Source: Escherichia phage vB_EcoM_PTE-Eco09
Sequence record: PQ306574.1
Length of the DNA: 64,000 bases
Direction: 5' to 3' (one strand)
Shown here piece by piece: positions 18,036 to 22,472 of the stretch. The stretch's first letter is position 1. Each line of letters opens with the position of its first letter. The notes beneath the pieces were generated by a model that was not told where the DNA came from, did no database searches, and worked only from the letters and a program-made list of their open reading frames with translations. Made by a program: the position numbers and the translations under genes.

Positions 18036-18605
18036 ATGATTCAATGTGTATTTGCTATTGGTGACACTAAAATGTCAGATGAAAATTGGGCTTTTGGTTT
18101 TAAAGGCGGTTTACCGTGGGGGCGTCCAATTAAAAAGGACATGGAAAACTTTAAAATGCGCACTATGGGAGATGTTGATCTTGCGGCGGTTGTAATGGGA
18201 CGTAATACCTTTGAAAGTCTGCCTAAAGCACTGGAAGGTCGTCTTAATGTGGTTATTAGTACCGATGCCAGCAAGCCGACACCGAAAGCCAAAAACGGCG
18301 ACCAGCCTAATGTGTATACTGGAATTGAATTAAAGGATCTGTTAAAAGTCCTGGAGAAAACGCAAGGTTTGGTAAGTGTTATCGGTGGACCTTCCCTGAT
18401 TGAAAAAGCGGTTGACTTTGCGGATCGTATTGTGTTAACATATGTTCAACGAGCAGGAATTAATGATCCGTTCGAATATGATGTTGGTATCTCTAAGGAA
18501 ATGATTCAGGAATTATATTTTGACTTTGCAACAAAAGAAGAACATAATTACTTCCTTGATGATTACCTGATCAGCGAACAAATTTTAGAACGTAAGAAGG
18601 CGTAA
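18036..18605 (+). CDS. frd: dihydrofolate reductase
   Basis: 189 aa; DHFR-like motifs (IGD-TKM-W, GGLPW, VVMGRNTFESLP, VIGG); adjacent to td as in T4. Confidence 0.85.
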   Translation: MIQCVFAIGDTKMSDENWAFGFKGGLPWGRPIKKDMENFKMRTMGDVDLAAVVMGRNTFESLPKALEGRLNVVISTDASKPTPKAKNGDQPNVYTGIELKDLLKVLEKTQGLVSVIGGPSLIEKAVDFADRIVLTYVQRAGINDPFEYDVGISKEMIQELYFDFATKEEHNYFLDDYLISEQILERKKA

Positions 18606-18606
18606 C

Positions 18607-18699
18607 ATGAAAATTCTGACAGATTATGAGTGCAAACATTGTGGTGAATCTTTGATGTTTGCTGGTAGTCGGTGCTTACATTGCGGACGGGAACAATAA
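18607..18699 (+). CDS. small zinc-ribbon peptide (30 aa)
   Basis: MKILTDYECKHCGESLMFAGSRCLHCGREQ; two CxxC pairs; below track size cutoff, hand-derived. Confidence 0.3.
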   Translation: MKILTDYECKHCGESLMFAGSRCLHCGREQ

Positions 18700-18968
18700 T
18701 GAAAGTCGGTATTATTCAATTATGGACGGCTACCAGTGAAAACTACGCAGTAGCCGTAGATTATTACGGTTTACAATATCTCTATGATGAAGCGAGCGCA
18801 TCATGGCTTCCTGTGCAAGAAAATAGCGATATCTCAAGACCTGCTACTATATTCGACCGTGGCGTTGTCTTTATCGATATTGACGAGACAGTAGCAAAAC
18901 TGCGTAAGAAAGCAATCAACAAGAAAAAGGTGATGTGGGATGAAAGAATATTTGAAACTATTGCGTGA
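18699..18968 (+). CDS. hypothetical protein (about 89 aa)
   Basis: Track ORF 18672-18968 starts at GTG; internal ATG (MKVGII) overlaps the stop of the preceding peptide. Confidence 0.4.
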   Translation: MKVGIIQLWTATSENYAVAVDYYGLQYLYDEASASWLPVQENSDISRPATIFDRGVVFIDIDETVAKLRKKAINKKKVMWDERIFETIA

Positions 18969-20160
18969 TGTTCTCGATAATGGCTGGCCTCGTGAAGATC
19001 GAACGGGGGTAGGTACGCTCTCTAAATTCGGCGCAGAGATGCGAATTGACTTAAGCAAGGGTTTCCCATTACTGACCACTAAAAAGATGGCTACAGCCTC
19101 TGTAATTGGCGAATTGCTATGGTTTATGGAGGGATCACTTGACCGCCGTCGCTTACAGGAAATTACACGCGGTAAGTTTGACGAAGAAGCCTTCGACATT
19201 TGGCGCGGCAACTGTCTTGATATGAAAGAAAAGAATCCTTTGCGATTCAATGGTTATAATGTCGGCAATATGTATGGTATGGCGTGGCGACGCAAACCGA
19301 TTCATCCACACGGTGAAATCAAAATTAAGCGCGTTAAGAGCAAATATACACATACATTTAAGCACCCGTGGGTAGAAGACTTTACGCCAACCAATGAAAC
19401 AGAAGACCGTTTATGTGCTATCTGGCGTGGTATGCGTTATGAAGAGTTTGATTATATTCTGGTAGCAGACCACTGGAAGACTCAATCTAATTTTGTTAAT
19501 GATGCATATTGCTTGTGGGGATTCCAGGAATGGGTAGATGATGGTTATTTCGGTTATCTGCTTGATAGTGATTATCTGGGTGGGGATATTATAGCACCGG
19601 ATACCACGATGTTTGTTAGTATGGACGTAGACACATCAAGCACTAAAGACGATGAAGAATATGTCTATCGCCCGAAGATTTGGGAAGACCAGTTACAAAA
19701 CGTGATCGAACAAATTAAAAACAATCCAACGGATCGCCGGATCATTATTGACTCATGGAACGTACAAGGAACACATAATGCTGTATTAGGTGTATGTCAT
19801 CCTTTCGTGCAATTCTACGTCAATGAAGGTAAACTGTCTTGTATGTGGTTTCAGCGAAGCGTAGACAGCTTTTTAGGCTTGCCCTTTAACGTCGCCAGCT
19901 ATGCGCTGTTAACTCACATCATAGCGAAAATGTGTGATCTTGAGGTAGGAGAACTGATTTTCTCTGGTGGAGATACTCACATTTACAAAAACCATTTTGA
20001 TCAAGTCATGGAACAGTTAAGCCGTGTTCCGTTTGATAAACCAACAATTGAGTTGCCGGAATTTAAATCTTTAGATGAGGTATTGACAAAGACTCCGAAA
20101 GACTTTAAAATTCACAACTATCAAAGCCATCCAGCGATCACCGCTCAAATGGCAGTATAA
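18940..20160 (+). CDS. td: thymidylate synthase (ThyA family) with a ~120-aa in-frame insertion
   Basis: N- and C-terminal regions colinear with T4 Td (DRTG-GT, GFP-TTKK, ELLWF, catalytic CH, QRSVDSFLGLPFN-ASYA-L-HI-AKMC, FSGGDTHIY-NH, PKDF…MAV); extra segment between YGMAWRR and DQLQNVIEQI; no intron. Confidence 0.85.
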   Translation: MKEYLKLLRDVLDNGWPREDRTGVGTLSKFGAEMRIDLSKGFPLLTTKKMATASVIGELLWFMEGSLDRRRLQEITRGKFDEEAFDIWRGNCLDMKEKNPLRFNGYNVGNMYGMAWRRKPIHPHGEIKIKRVKSKYTHTFKHPWVEDFTPTNETEDRLCAIWRGMRYEEFDYILVADHWKTQSNFVNDAYCLWGFQEWVDDGYFGYLLDSDYLGGDIIAPDTTMFVSMDVDTSSTKDDEEYVYRPKIWEDQLQNVIEQIKNNPTDRRIIIDSWNVQGTHNAVLGVCHPFVQFYVNEGKLSCMWFQRSVDSFLGLPFNVASYALLTHIIAKMCDLEVGELIFSGGDTHIYKNHFDQVMEQLSRVPFDKPTIELPEFKSLDEVLTKTPKDFKIHNYQSHPAITAQMAV

Positions 20161-20165
20161 ACAAA

Positions 20166-20181
20166 GGGGGCGAAAGCCCCC
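20166..20181 (+). other. GNRA-tetraloop hairpin after td (no T-tract)
   Basis: GGGGGC-GAAA-GCCCCC. Confidence 0.4.
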
Positions 20182-20228
20182 AATATGGAGGATAAACTTG
20201 TTCCTGCTAAAATATGAAGTGAGGTAAT

Positions 20229-22472
20229 ATGATTAAAAATGTTGTTAAGTCTTCCGGTCTGACTGTTCCGTTTGAAAAAGAAAAAGTAATGAAAATTCTG
20301 GAAGCGGCAGCCGAAGGTCATAACGTTGATCCATATGAATTGTTTGATATGGTTGAACCACTTCTGACAGAAGGTATGTCTACCAATGATATCCAGAAAG
20401 TATTGATTAAGGTCGCCGCAGATAACATCACGGTAGAAACACCCGATTATCAATATGTAGCAAGTAACCTTGCAATGTTCGCGCTTCGTAAATCAGTATA
20501 CGGTCAATTCCAACCTATTGATTTTTATAGCCATATTGAGCGTAATATTGCAACCGGAAAATATGATCGCGAAATTCTGCAAAAATATTCCCGTGAAGAA
20601 GTGGAATATCTGGAGAAATTCATCGACCATAAACTTGATTTTAAAATGACCTATGCTGGTGCGATGCAGTTAAAAGAGAAATATCTTGTTCAGGATCGCA
20701 GCACTAAGAAAATCATCGAAACACCGCAATTTGCGTATATGCTGATCGGTATGTGCTTGCATCAAGAAGAGACCGAAAATCGACTTGAACATGTGATTGA
20801 TTTTTATAATGCGGTTGCGAATAAGCAAATCTCTCTGCCTACTCCGATTATGGCAGGTGTGCGTACCCCAACACGCCAATTTAGTTCGTGTGTGGTGATT
20901 GAAAGTGATGACTCATTGCAGGGTATTAATGAAACCGCAAATGCAATCATCAAGTATATTAGCAAGCGTGCTGGTATCGGTATCAACGCTGGCATGATTC
21001 GCGCGGAAGGATCTAAGATCGGGCATGGTGAAGTTCGTCATACTGGAGTTATCCCATTCTGGAAACATTTTCAGACTGCCGTTAAGTCATGCTCACAAGG
21101 CGGTATTCGTGGCGGGGCGGCGACTCTCTATTACCCAATGTGGCATTTAGAGTTTGAAAGTCTGATTGTGTTAAAGAACAATAAGGGGGTGGAAGATAAC
21201 CGCATTCGTCATCTTGATTACGGCGTACAGATTAATAACCTGATGGTAGAGCGATTCCTTAAACGGGATTACATTACTCTGTTTAGTCCAGATGTTGCAG
21301 GTGGCTTGTTGTGGGATCTATACTTCCGAGATGAGGAAGGTTTCCGCCAGCTTTACGAAAAACTGGAAAAAGATCCGAGTGTTCGTAAAACTCGTGTTAA
21401 AGCCGAAGACCTGTTTTTAGCGGTGGCAATTGAACGTTTTAACACTGGTCGAATCTACCCAACGTTCACAGACAACATGAACAATCACGGGGCGTTTATT
21501 CGTAATGTAGCACCGATTAAACAATCTAACCTGTGTTGTGAAATTGCTCTGCCAACAAAACCGATGGGTCGTGATGATTCAGAGATCAGCCTATGCACTT
21601 TGGCAGCATATGTTTTAGGTAATTTCGATATCGAAAATATGGAAGAAGTAGAACGCATTGCTATGGTTATGGTGCGTGCACTTGACAACCTGTTAGATTA
21701 TCAGGATTATCCTGTAGAACAAGCTCTGACAGCCAAAAAACGTCGCTCTCTGGGTGTTGGTGTGACTAACTTTGCATCGTATCTAGCAGATAATTTCTTC
21801 ACATATGAAGACGCTAGCGAGTTTACGCATAAAACGTTTGAACGCTTGCAATATGCTCTGATTAAGGCTAGTGTGCGACTGGCTAAAGAGAAGGGTGCTT
21901 GCGAACTGATGCACGAAACACGCTATGGTCGCGGTGAACTTCCTATCGACTGGTACAAAAAGACAGTAGATGAACTGGTTGATCCGGTGTATGAGATGGA
22001 TTGGGAAGAACTGCGCGAAGACCTGAAAAAATATGGCATTCGTAACAGTACGCTTTCGGCGCTGATGCCCTGTGAGTCATCTTCTCAGGTGTCTAACAGC
22101 ACAAACGGTATTGAACCGCCTCGCGGGATTGTATCGGTTAAAGGATCGAAAGAAGGGCAATTTAATCAGGTTATTCCGAACGTAGAGAATAATGCTGATG
22201 TTATTGACCTGCTTTGGACACTGATCAAGAAAGGTAACAAGCCCTATCTGACACTGGCAGCGATCATGCAGAAGTTTGTAGATCAGGCGATTAGTTCCAA
22301 TACATCCTATGATCCAAGCACTTATAAGACTGGTAAAGTCGATATTGCTGATGTGTTAGATGATATGTTGTTCGCTCAACATTACGGTCTGAAAACCCTG
22401 TATTATGCGAACGTTCGCGACGGTGCAGATGGTACGGAAGACGCTAGCGAGTGCTCATCTTGCAAGCTGTAA
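20229..22472 (+). CDS. nrdA: ribonucleotide reductase large subunit (class Ia alpha)
   Basis: 747 aa; ATP-cone N-terminus, catalytic core motifs (NLCCEI, SALMP-ESSSQ), C-terminal CSSCKL; size as T4 NrdA. Confidence 0.95.
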   Translation: MIKNVVKSSGLTVPFEKEKVMKILEAAAEGHNVDPYELFDMVEPLLTEGMSTNDIQKVLIKVAADNITVETPDYQYVASNLAMFALRKSVYGQFQPIDFYSHIERNIATGKYDREILQKYSREEVEYLEKFIDHKLDFKMTYAGAMQLKEKYLVQDRSTKKIIETPQFAYMLIGMCLHQEETENRLEHVIDFYNAVANKQISLPTPIMAGVRTPTRQFSSCVVIESDDSLQGINETANAIIKYISKRAGIGINAGMIRAEGSKIGHGEVRHTGVIPFWKHFQTAVKSCSQGGIRGGAATLYYPMWHLEFESLIVLKNNKGVEDNRIRHLDYGVQINNLMVERFLKRDYITLFSPDVAGGLLWDLYFRDEEGFRQLYEKLEKDPSVRKTRVKAEDLFLAVAIERFNTGRIYPTFTDNMNNHGAFIRNVAPIKQSNLCCEIALPTKPMGRDDSEISLCTLAAYVLGNFDIENMEEVERIAMVMVRALDNLLDYQDYPVEQALTAKKRRSLGVGVTNFASYLADNFFTYEDASEFTHKTFERLQYALIKASVRLAKEKGACELMHETRYGRGELPIDWYKKTVDELVDPVYEMDWEELREDLKKYGIRNSTLSALMPCESSSQVSNSTNGIEPPRGIVSVKGSKEGQFNQVIPNVENNADVIDLLWTLIKKGNKPYLTLAAIMQKFVDQAISSNTSYDPSTYKTGKVDIADVLDDMLFAQHYGLKTLYYANVRDGADGTEDASECSSCKL

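What the first reader, a model, noticed from the sequence alone, without database searches (positions are those of the whole stretch)
19291..19651. About 120-aa in-frame insertion inside thymidylate synthase
The td ORF (406 aa) is colinear with T4 Td (286 aa) at both ends, including the catalytic Cys-His and the C-terminal MAV. A contiguous extra segment sits between the YG-W-R block and the DQ…NDRR block. It is in frame, has no stops, and does not look like an intein (no Cys/Ser start, no His-Asn end) or an intron. It may be an inserted domain.
Basis: partly seen in the sequence, partly recalled or inferred. Interest (0 to 1): 0.5.

Follow-up and report, generated by a model that had tools for sequence, protein, structure and literature searches.

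The report
Decayed homing-endonuclease-like domain inside thymidylate synthase
The thymidylate synthase of this RB49-like phage carries one contiguous 132-residue extra domain that is translated with the enzyme and is the eroded remnant of a phage homing-endonuclease-type protein, which sits nearly complete at the same spot of the enzyme in many other phages.

Summary
The window is a Krischvirus (RB49-like T4-type phage). Its td ORF (18940-20160, 406 aa) is colinear with T4 Td and E. coli ThyA except for one block, aa 118-249 (nt 19291-19686). This block replaces the 5-10-residue loop between YGxxWR and DQ. It is not an intein or an intron, and it hides no alternative-frame ORF. It is translated: dN/dS is 0.22, and AlphaFold2 gives a confident fold (pLDDT 92-93).

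The block is homologous to a very large family of small free-standing phage proteins that PHROGs labels "HNH endonuclease" (hhalign 97.9%, E 6e-13). This family has no Pfam or NCBIfam model and no solved structure. At least 64 divergent ThyA clusters carry the near-complete protein (196-284 aa) in-frame at the same loop. Those long inserts keep the family's invariant residues as well as free-standing copies do. One such ThyA is 88% identical in its core to ThyAs with short loops.

The Krischvirus copy has lost the N-terminal sub-module, the Cys knuckle, the C-terminal region and most invariant residues, and its globule is acidic (pI 4.1). It is present in all 58 records that match the gene over at least 80% of its length.

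Best reading: a fixed, decayed, non-splicing in-frame insertion, kept as a rigid passenger domain.

The parts
18940..20160 (+). td (thymidylate synthase ThyA) ORF, 406 aa, in the frd-td-nrdA arrangement of T4-type phages
   Evidence: ORF list; PF00303 E 1.5e-84; NCBIfam thymidylate synthase models, TIGR03284 above its cut-off; 96-98% DNA identity to Krischvirus genomes
18940..19290 (+). ThyA N-terminal core, aa 1-117, ending in the active-site helix MYGMAWR (Y112)
   Evidence: Alignment to T4 and E. coli; dN/dS 0.04 within Krischvirus
19291..19686 (+). The insert, aa 118-249 (132 aa): one contiguous in-frame block replacing the WR..DQ surface loop
   Evidence: dN/dS 0.22; AF2 pLDDT 92-93; hhalign to the free-standing family 97.9%, E 6e-13; an HMM built only from free-standing proteins hits nothing else in the window, E 2.5e-9
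19291..19329 (+). Ascending stalk strand, aa 118-130 (RKPIHPHGEIKIK), basic, conserved in short and long inserts (PxPHG...IxR)
   Evidence: DSSP E118-130; conservation in alignments
19330..19395 (+). Variable linker, aa 131-152, occupying the place where long inserts carry the ~90-aa N-terminal beta sub-module (deleted here)
   Evidence: Alignments A2 and A5; low conservation
19396..19620 (+). Globular remnant of the endonuclease-like module, aa 153-227: helices 153-171, 177-189 and 195-200 plus a beta hairpin 206-209/224-227. Motifs IW, DHW, NF..D, CLWGFQEWVD, LDSD (ancestral LDKD), APDTTMF (ancestral YSPxTCxF). Acidic, pI 4.1
19450..19455 (+). Site of the deleted Cys knuckle (ancestral ...RCYNPxxxxxxY...). 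A 12-nt (SEYN) insertion/deletion polymorphism among Krischvirus genomes lies between 19452 and 19453
   Evidence: Alignments
19621..19659 (+). Acidic coil, aa 228-240 (MDVDTSSTKDDEE), where long inserts carry the Asn-bearing segment and a ~60-aa C-terminal region
   Evidence: DSSP shows no helix here; alignments; N166->D
19660..19686 (+). Descending stalk strand, aa 241-249 (YVYRPKIWE), conserved in all insert-bearing ThyAs (V.RP.I..DQ)
   Evidence: DSSP E241-250; alignments
19687..20160 (+). ThyA C-terminal core, aa 250-406, with R266/R267, C286-H287, N317, H347 and the C-terminal MAV

Best explanation
The block is a translated, non-spliced domain insertion in an otherwise intact ThyA. It descends from a phage free-standing protein of the family that PHROGs calls 'HNH endonuclease'. 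That family has an N-terminal beta sub-module followed by a Cys-containing module with the motifs W..M..RCY...Y..V.VC.RW..F.NF..D...L.GY..W...LDKD....YS..TC.F.....N. The protein became fused in-frame into the tip of the surface hairpin between the active-site helix (YGxxWR) and helix DQxxxxI. In many phages the near-complete protein is still there and keeps its invariant residues. In the ancestor of Krischvirus and some other T4-type phages it was cut down to 127-140 aa. The N-terminal sub-module, the Cys knuckle and the C-terminal region were deleted, LDKD became LDSD, the remaining Cys, Tyr and Asn positions were replaced, and the globule became acidic. What remains is a compact helical/beta globule on a two-stranded beta stalk, one per subunit of the Td dimer. 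It most likely no longer binds or cuts DNA. It persists because it is fixed, folds well and sits on a loop that tolerates any length. Selection now acts mainly to keep it folded so that the enzyme stays functional.

Shown: contiguity, translation under constraint, confident fold, homology to the free-standing family and to the long inserts, loss of invariant residues, and presence in every sampled Krischvirus td.

Inferred: the direction of change (long to short), loss of activity, the passenger status, and the original insertion mechanism (an in-frame capture of a free-standing homing endonuclease gene).
For: Single block at R117/D250.

Not an intein, intron or hidden ORF: no Pfam family on the insert, no Rfam match, and no alternative-frame ORF longer than 41 aa on the + strand or 70 aa on the - strand.

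Translation and constraint: pooled pN/pS is 0.22 in the insert, against 0.04 in the N-core and about 0-0.15 in the non-mosaic C-core. Across T4-type relatives at 60-67% core identity the insert is 34-55% identical, with invariant stalk, CLWGFQEWVD and APDT..F motifs.

Fold: full-length pLDDT 93 and pTM 0.91; insert alone pLDDT 92.

Homology: the long same-site inserts hit PHROG 2081/953/374 at E 1e-33 to 1e-20. tblastn of a long insert finds 1,435 phage records. hhalign of the short-insert profile against a profile of 25 free-standing proteins gives 97.9%, E 6e-13. The free-standing HMM hits only the td insert in the window. The best Foldseek BFVD matches are long phage ThyAs and then small phage DNA-binding or homing-endonuclease proteins.

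Same site elsewhere: 17 long ThyAs among the homologues, and 64 of the best 150 representatives of a profile search that returned 9,941 hits.

Decay: 68 long inserts keep the 25 near-invariant residues about as often as 61 free-standing proteins do (for example D-K-D 0.97-0.99, Y153 1.00, N166 0.91). In the HMM alignment the window keeps 8 of the 25; a separate alignment also matches W85, making 9. It has K->S, Y->I, C->T and N->D, and 12 columns are deleted. Module pI is 4.1, against 8.5-9 in most long forms.

Fixation: all 58 records that match the td gene over at least 80% of its length carry the insert.
Against: Purifying selection and the very strong conservation of CLWGFQEWVD, GDIxAPDT and both stalk strands across genera could mean the remnant has acquired a function of its own. 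The high pTM suggests that it is docked on the core rather than dangling.

The long-to-short polarity is inferred from homology to complete free-standing proteins, not from a rooted tree.

Model coordinates and predicted aligned error were not available, so contacts between insert and core could not be examined.
Confidence: 0.7

Rival explanations
1. Exapted domain. The remnant has been recruited for a new job in Td. Examples are docking Td to partners of the T4-type dNTP-synthesising complex or to another phage or host protein, regulating activity or dimer stability, or acting as an acidic decoy for a nucleic-acid-binding protein.
For: dN/dS of 0.22 is below 1. The insert is retained in several T4-type genera whose Td cores are only 60-67% identical. 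Surface-independent motifs are invariant. The full-length model has pTM 0.91, which implies a fixed orientation on the core. The charge has reversed to pI 4.1.
Against: The insert evolves 1.3-3 times faster than the core. It tolerates a 4-aa indel polymorphism within one genus. The same loop carries unrelated 5, 10-14 and 27-33-aa sequences in close ThyA relatives, which points to low functional demand on the site. No partner or activity is known. Constraint for foldability alone could give the observed dN/dS.
Confidence: 0.22
2. Still-active selfish element. The Krischvirus insert itself is a working in-frame homing endonuclease or DNA-binding module that promotes its own spread into insert-less td alleles.
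For: It belongs to a family that behaves like free-standing homing endonuclease genes, with 2,020 places in 1,435 phage records. A divergent recombination patch in td of JSE-type phages starts 15 nt downstream of the insert.
Against: In the HMM alignment 17 of the 25 near-invariant family residues are missing or changed, including all Cys, the Lys of D-K-D, and the Tyr and the Asn. The N-terminal sub-module is absent. The globule has net charge -12. There is no presence/absence polymorphism among the 58 full-length td records.
Confidence: 0.03
3. Intein, intron, translational bypass or other removable element: the segment is removed before the mature enzyme forms.
For: The position interrupts a conserved enzyme next to active-site residues, as inteins and the T4 td intron do (general knowledge).
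Against: There is no Hint or intein domain. The junction residues are wrong (R118 ... E249 | D250). Rfam finds nothing at E<=1. The segment shows codon-level purifying selection and amino-acid conservation over deep divergence. It gives a confident fold that is continuous with the ThyA hairpin.
Confidence: 0.01
4. Ancestral ThyA feature or lineage-specific loop growth: the block grew in place, or was lost elsewhere, rather than being inserted from an unrelated gene.
For: The WR..DQ loop is length-hypervariable in phage ThyAs.
Against: There is significant profile homology to independent free-standing proteins. Nested long forms contain the complete free-standing architecture. One 284-aa insert sits in a ThyA whose core is 88% identical to ThyAs with short loops.
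Confidence: 0.02

Closest known systems
ShiLan domain in mycobacteriophage DNA methylases (Arsenault, Gosselin & Gogarten 2025, PMC11855218)
   Same: It is an insertion in a phage enzyme gene that reads through in frame without stops. It has no intein or intron features, is predicted to be retained in the host protein as a protruding structure, and is linked to an HNH-type homing endonuclease.
   Different: In ShiLan the endonuclease is encoded out of frame inside the insertion, and the in-frame product is only a hairpin-like loop. Here no alternative-frame ORF exists and the in-frame product itself is the endonuclease-like module. The host gene, host phages and module family are also different. 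The Krischvirus copy is present in every sampled genome and decayed, not sporadic.
Free-standing phage proteins of PHROG 2081/953/374/3377 ('HNH endonuclease', 'DNA-binding protein'), e.g. ICP1 ADX89240, PVP-SE1 gp105, phage alia gp039
   Same: Sequence and fold homology of the central module.
   Different: Those are independent genes of about 170-270 aa with an N-terminal beta sub-module, three conserved Cys, D-K-D, Y-S, T-C and N. They often also have an AP2-like or HTH tail. The window's copy is internal to ThyA and lacks most of these features. No member has been characterised biochemically as far as I could find, and none has a Pfam or NCBIfam model or a solved structure.
Long same-site inserts in other phage ThyAs (Klebsiella phages KP13-7 and phiKp_21, Escherichia phage UE-S1, Vibrio phages D181 and D69, many metagenomic phages)
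   Same: Same insertion point, same stalk motifs, homologous module.
   Different: They are 196-284 aa, contain the near-complete free-standing architecture plus a C-terminal region, retain the invariant residues, and are mostly basic.
Homing endonuclease genes that interrupt T4-type nucleotide-metabolism genes: the td group I intron with I-TevI, and free-standing endonuclease genes that split nrdA (Aeh1 mobE; from established literature and PMC2988022)
   Same: Mobile endonuclease genes target highly conserved parts of td and nrd genes. A relative's contig here shows nrdA split by an endonuclease-like ORF.
   Different: Those elements avoid damaging the host protein by RNA splicing or by splitting the gene into two polypeptides. 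Here the element is translated as an internal domain of a single polypeptide.
Known ThyA length variants: the Lactobacillus casei 50-residue small-domain insert and the eukaryotic inserts (textbook ThyA structure knowledge; L. casei chains of 316 aa appear)
   Same: Extra residues are tolerated in surface loops near the small domain. The WR..DQ loop is also longer in eukaryotic enzymes.
   Different: Those are short extensions with no homology to independent proteins. This one is a 132-aa autonomous fold of foreign origin.

Membership tests
Thymidylate synthase ThyA (PF00303) | Profile match over the whole catalytic fold | tested here: met
   PF00303 E 1.5e-84 in two stretches; TIGR03284 at 283 bits against a cut-off of 108; PDB ThyA E 1e-68
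Thymidylate synthase ThyA (PF00303) | Catalytic Cys-His, dUMP-phosphate arginines, Tyr94 and Asn177 equivalents | tested here: met
   C286-H287, R21, R266/R267, R306, Y112 and N317 are invariant in the alignment with T4 and E. coli
Thymidylate synthase ThyA (PF00303) | Enzymatic activity with the insert present | not testable with these tools
   Needs an enzyme assay or complementation of a thyA mutant
Intein | Hint/splicing domain with an N-terminal Cys/Ser, a C-terminal His-Asn and a +1 Cys/Ser/Thr | tested here: not met
   No Pfam family on the insert at E<=1. The insert starts with Arg-Lys-Pro and ends with Trp-Glu, and the next residue is Asp250.
Group I / group II intron | Ribozyme core detectable by covariance models; no selection on the host reading frame | tested here: not met
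   Rfam gave 0 matches at E<=1 in 18500-20500; dN/dS is 0.22 in the td frame
ShiLan-type insertion (hidden out-of-frame HNH) | Endonuclease ORF in an alternative frame inside the insertion | tested here: not met
   The longest other-frame ORFs overlapping the insert are 41 aa (+) and 70 aa (-), and both start upstream of it. The same holds in the KP13-7 long insert.
Phage free-standing 'HNH endonuclease'-annotated module family (PHROG 2081/953/374) | Significant profile similarity of the central module | tested here: met
   hhalign 97.9%, E 6e-13; free-standing-only HMM E 2.5e-9. The single-sequence match to PHROG 2081 is only E 0.065.
Phage free-standing 'HNH endonuclease'-annotated module family (PHROG 2081/953/374) | N-terminal beta sub-module (F..TG....KD...P.V.GVGY.G) | tested here: not met
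   Absent from the window and from P0001-P0006; present in the long ThyA inserts
Phage free-standing 'HNH endonuclease'-annotated module family (PHROG 2081/953/374) | Near-invariant residues R-C-Y, V.VC.RW, D-K-D, Y-S, T-C, N | tested here: not met
   In the HMM alignment the window keeps 8 of 25 (V, W, F, D, D, D, T, F); the alignment also matches W85. K143->S, Y153->I, S154->A, C158->T and N166->D, and the Cys knuckle is deleted. The 68 long ThyA inserts keep these residues at 0.75-1.00.
Canonical HNH / His-Me finger nucleases | Beta-beta-alpha metal finger with a catalytic His and Asn/His ligands | tested here: inconclusive
Mobile homing element | Presence/absence polymorphism among close relatives at one target site | tested here: not met
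   For the window's lineage all 58 full-length td records carry it. For the long form the feature is met once: the P0017 core is 88% identical to ThyAs with 5, 28 or 33-aa loops.

The most novel reading that the evidence does not exclude
The WR..DQ loop of phage thymidylate synthase is the target of a so far undescribed kind of selfish element. This would be a complete free-standing-type homing endonuclease that needs neither intron nor intein, because it is translated in frame as an internal domain on a beta stalk of a dimeric, insertion-tolerant enzyme. In this reading the long forms are still active and spread between thyA lineages, and the Krischvirus block is the fossil end-stage of that life cycle.
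Probability: 0.3. Interest if true: 0.8.

Novelty: new variant of a known kind. Interest (0 to 1): 0.58.

Why it matters
Homing endonuclease genes are thought to survive inside essential genes only by hiding in self-splicing introns or inteins, or by sitting between genes. This case shows a third route. The whole endonuclease-like protein is read through as an extra domain of the host enzyme at a loop that tolerates it.

The data also show both ends of that route. At one end are seemingly intact modules in at least 64 divergent ThyA clusters. At the other is a decayed remnant, present in every sampled genome, in a well-studied phage group (RB49, Phi1, JSE).

The finding gives a testable system for how selfish DNA turns into protein domains. 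It flags a very large, uncurated and structurally unsolved phage protein family (9,941 cluster representatives). It also explains why Krischvirus Td is 120-130 residues longer than T4 Td, which matters for annotation. Some of these ThyAs are deposited as 'HNH endonuclease' or 'hypothetical protein'.

Tried and rejected
- The search for homologous proteins with the insert alone returned nothing, which is a limit of the word index. The full-length query worked.
- Pfam, NCBIfam and PDB sequence searches on the insert, the long inserts and the free-standing proteins gave no family.
- From three examples I first thought the D.Y.LWGFQEWVD segment was specific to ThyA-embedded modules and might be a docking surface. 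The 25-protein free-standing alignment shows the segment (DI..L.GY..W) is part of the family, so I dropped that idea.
- I asked whether the 27-33-aa loops of other phage ThyAs are scars of the module. They fall into several unrelated sequence classes with no stalk motifs, so I rejected this.
- Core identity and module identity are uncorrelated across 69 module-bearing ThyAs (Spearman 0.02). All pairs are deeply diverged representatives, so I treat this as uninformative rather than as proof of mobility.
- Literature searches found no description of this insert. The thymidylate synthase inteins reported in actinobacteriophages are in ThyX, a different enzyme.

Full report
**Identity of the window and check of the observation**

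A 3-kb stretch around the finding is 96-98% identical to RB49, Phi1, JSE and some 55 other Krischvirus genomes (Straboviridae, T4-type). The ORF at 18940-20160 (+) encodes 406 aa and lies between frd and nrdA.

Pfam PF00303 matches it at E 1.5e-84, but in two stretches. Solved ThyA sequences align to aa 1-82 and aa 250-406 only. Aligned with T4 Td (286 aa) and E. coli ThyA (264 aa), all extra residues form one block between R117 and D250, where T4 has DFGGV and E. coli has AWPTPDGRHI. The block is therefore aa 118-249, nt 19291-19686.

All catalytic residues are conserved. The "several small indels" scenario is excluded. All 58 phage records that match the gene over at least 80% of its length contain the block, at 90-100% protein identity, so it is not an artefact.

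**What it is not**

- The insert has no Pfam family at E<=1. Its junction residues (Arg-Lys-Pro ... Trp-Glu | Asp) are incompatible with protein splicing.
- Rfam finds nothing at E<=1 in 18500-20500.
- No substantial alternative-frame ORF lies inside it. This separates it from the ShiLan insertion of mycobacteriophage methylases, where a hidden out-of-frame HNH gene sits inside an in-frame read-through segment (PMC11855218).

**It is translated and constrained**

I used nine Krischvirus td genes (the window's plus eight relatives). Pooled pN/pS is as follows:

| Region | pN/pS |
|---|---|
| N-terminal core | 0.04 |
| Insert | 0.22 |
| C-terminal core, non-mosaic pairs | about 0-0.15 |

More distant T4-type phages show the same gp32-frd-td-nrdA synteny. 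Their Td cores are 60-67% identical to the window's, and they carry the same reduced insert at 34-55% identity. The stalk strands and the CLWGFQEWVD and GDIxAPDTxxF motifs are invariant, and the rest is variable. The insert thus evolves 1.3-3 times faster than the core but is clearly not neutral.

**Structure**

AlphaFold2 on the full protein with 44 sequences gives pLDDT 93 and pTM 0.91. The insert alone gives pLDDT 92 and pTM 0.84.

The insert forms two long antiparallel strands (118-130 and 241-250) that extend the native hairpin. These carry a globule of helices (153-171, 177-189, 195-200) and a beta hairpin (206-209/224-227). The high pTM suggests a defined orientation on the core, but coordinates and error maps were not available to check contacts.

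**Origin**

tblastn with the insert hits, beyond Krischvirus, the ThyA of Klebsiella jumbo phage KP13-7 (E 1e-11). It also hits a Vibrio phage D181 protein deposited as "HNH endonuclease" (E 5e-7). Both are ThyAs, of 517 and 477 aa, with longer inserts at exactly the same place.

These long inserts match PHROG families 2081, 953 and 374 ("HNH endonuclease") at E 1e-33 to 1e-20. The window's insert alone reaches only E 0.065. A full-length homologue search returned 17 ThyAs of 401-613 aa. Their alignment shows a nested series:

- Long inserts (196-284 aa) consist of stalk, N-terminal beta sub-module, central module, C-terminal region and stalk.
- The Krischvirus type (127-140 aa) keeps the stalk and a shortened central module.

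tblastn with a long insert finds 1,435 phage records and 2,020 places. Most are free-standing genes of about 170-270 aa. Examples are ICP1 ADX89240, PVP-SE1 gp105 and phage alia gp039.

A profile of the inserts, searched against 1.84 billion representatives, finds 9,941 proteins at E<=1e-3 and 3,361 at E<=1e-10. Of the best 150, 64 are ThyAs, and most of those have the module between ThyA-HMM positions about 118-130 and 120-127. The other 86 are free-standing proteins with one or two module copies.

Twenty-five free-standing proteins align as N-terminal sub-module plus central module, with near-invariant R-C-Y, V.VC.RW, F..D, L-D-K-D, Y-S, T-C.F and N. A profile of the seven short inserts matches that free-standing profile with hhalign probability 97.9%, E 6e-13. 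An HMM built only from the free-standing proteins hits the 64-kb window once, in the td insert, at E 2.5e-9.

The family has no Pfam or NCBIfam model and no solved relative.

**Decay in the window's lineage**

I scored the 25 near-invariant columns of the free-standing family in three groups:

| Group | Retention of the 25 near-invariant residues |
|---|---|
| 61 independent free-standing proteins | 0.61-1.00 |
| 68 long ThyA-embedded modules | 0.60-1.00 (D-K-D 0.97-0.99, Y153 1.00, C158 0.87, N166 0.91) |
| The window's insert | 8 of 25 kept |

The long embedded modules are therefore maintained, not junk. In the window's insert, 12 of the 25 columns are deleted in the HMM alignment. Among the rest, K143->S, Y153->I, S154->A, C158->T and N166->D. 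A separate alignment also matches W85, which would raise the retained count to 9.

The segment that should follow the beta hairpin and carry the Asn is an acidic coil. The module has net charge -12 and pI 4.1, against pI 8.5-9 in most long forms. DNA binding or cleavage by the Krischvirus remnant is therefore unlikely.

**Evidence that the element has moved**

The WR..DQ loop is a length hot-spot in phage ThyAs. Among 103 short ThyAs it holds 5, 10-14 or 27-33 residues, in several unrelated sequence classes.

The ThyA P0017 carries a 284-aa insert and sits next to DHFR on a 97-kb phage contig. Its core is 88% identical to ThyAs with 5, 28 or 33-aa loops, but at most 64% identical to any other module-bearing ThyA. 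The alignment shows a clean filled site versus empty site at WR|DQ.

Among about 350-kb jumbo phages, KP13-7, UE-S1 and ph0011 have long inserts, whereas Muenster appears to lack one.

Enterococcus phage 163 ThyA (491 aa) carries the same module plus a helix-turn-helix at a different ThyA site, in the small domain. This is an independent in-frame capture.

Whether movement is driven by the module's own nuclease activity or by recombination through the extremely conserved flanks (YGVQWR / DQLxNLI) cannot be decided here.

**Mechanistic reading**

Shown:
- a contiguous, translated, well-folded domain;
- homology to free-standing proteins and to the long same-site inserts;
- loss of the family's conserved residues;
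- presence in every sampled genome of the genus.

Inferred:
- A free-standing homing-endonuclease-type gene became fused in frame at the tip of a surface hairpin of ThyA. The alternative outcome, a split host gene, is visible for nrdA in a relative's contig.
- The enzyme tolerated the fusion.
- In the lineage leading to Krischvirus and allied T4-type phages, deletions removed the N-terminal sub-module, the Cys knuckle and the C-terminal part.
- The residue now survives as a rigid passenger whose main constraint is to fold.

I put 0.7 on this reading. I put about 0.2 on the remnant having gained a function of its own (partner docking or regulation). Active homing by the Krischvirus copy, or any splicing, is very unlikely.

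**Comparison and novelty**

The nearest published case is the ShiLan domain (PMC11855218). It differs in that its endonuclease is encoded out of frame. Classical td/nrd mobile elements rely on introns, inteins or gene splitting (PMC2988022).

I found no paper that mentions the Krischvirus Td insert or the ThyA-embedded modules. The genes themselves have been in GenBank since 2003, annotated simply as td.

I therefore rate it a new variant of a known kind. The window's own feature is a fossil of moderate interest. The family it points to, seemingly intact endonuclease-like proteins translated as internal domains of ThyA in at least 64 divergent clusters, is the more interesting lead.

Noticed in passing
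window 19701-20019 (td gene nt 762-1080): In JSE, KFS-EC and Skers this part of td is a divergent patch. It has dS about 0.9 and dN 0.13 against the window, while the rest of the gene has dS 0.03-0.2. The patch begins 15 nt downstream of the insert. P0002 carries a third allele of the same region. This looks like allelic exchange within the C-terminal core, bounded by the insert.
   Followed up: partly
window 19452/19453: There is a 12-nt (SEYN) insertion/deletion polymorphism among Krischvirus td genes. It lies exactly where the Cys knuckle of the ancestral module has been deleted. The window, JSE, Phi1 and PHB13 have the short allele, and RB49 and most others have the long one.
   Followed up: partly
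L017 4689-7876: In a metagenomic T4-type contig that carries a short-insert td, nrdA is split into 476-aa and 324-aa ORFs. A 237-aa ORF with a faint I-HmuI NUMOD-like hit separates them. This is the gene-splitting outcome of an endonuclease gene insertion, next to the in-frame outcome in td.
   Followed up: no
L005 2090-3565 (Enterococcus phage 163): A 491-aa ThyA-like protein carries the same module plus a helix-turn-helix. The insertion is at a different site, in the small domain upstream of the YG.Q motif. This is an independent in-frame capture in a Herelleviridae phage.
   Followed up: partly
P0143, P0150, P0206, P0211, P0219, P0220, P0256, P0261 (representative proteins): Eight module-bearing ThyAs show a second gap of about 20-70 aa at ThyA-HMM position ~173. 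This suggests another insertion site in the C-terminal core.
   Followed up: no
L002 2638-4071 (Vibrio phage D181); also LC768484.1 and OP114734.1: ThyAs with inserts are deposited as 'HNH endonuclease' (D181, D69) or 'hypothetical protein' (phiKp_21, pEJ01, Cognac). The D181 enzyme is also a divergent ThyA (TRSG instead of DRTG, LKDAHTY instead of GGDTHxY), so its substrate may differ.
   Followed up: no
window 18672-18968 (+): A 98-aa ORF overlaps the td start by 29 nt. It is annotated as a hypothetical protein in all relatives. Between td and nrdA the window has only 68 nt, whereas related T4-type contigs have a DUF4326 gene there.
   Followed up: no
MH494197.1 345975-346899 (Escherichia phage CMSTMSU): The insert-less td of this jumbo phage is annotated as two CDS. 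This may be a frameshift or a split gene.
   Followed up: no
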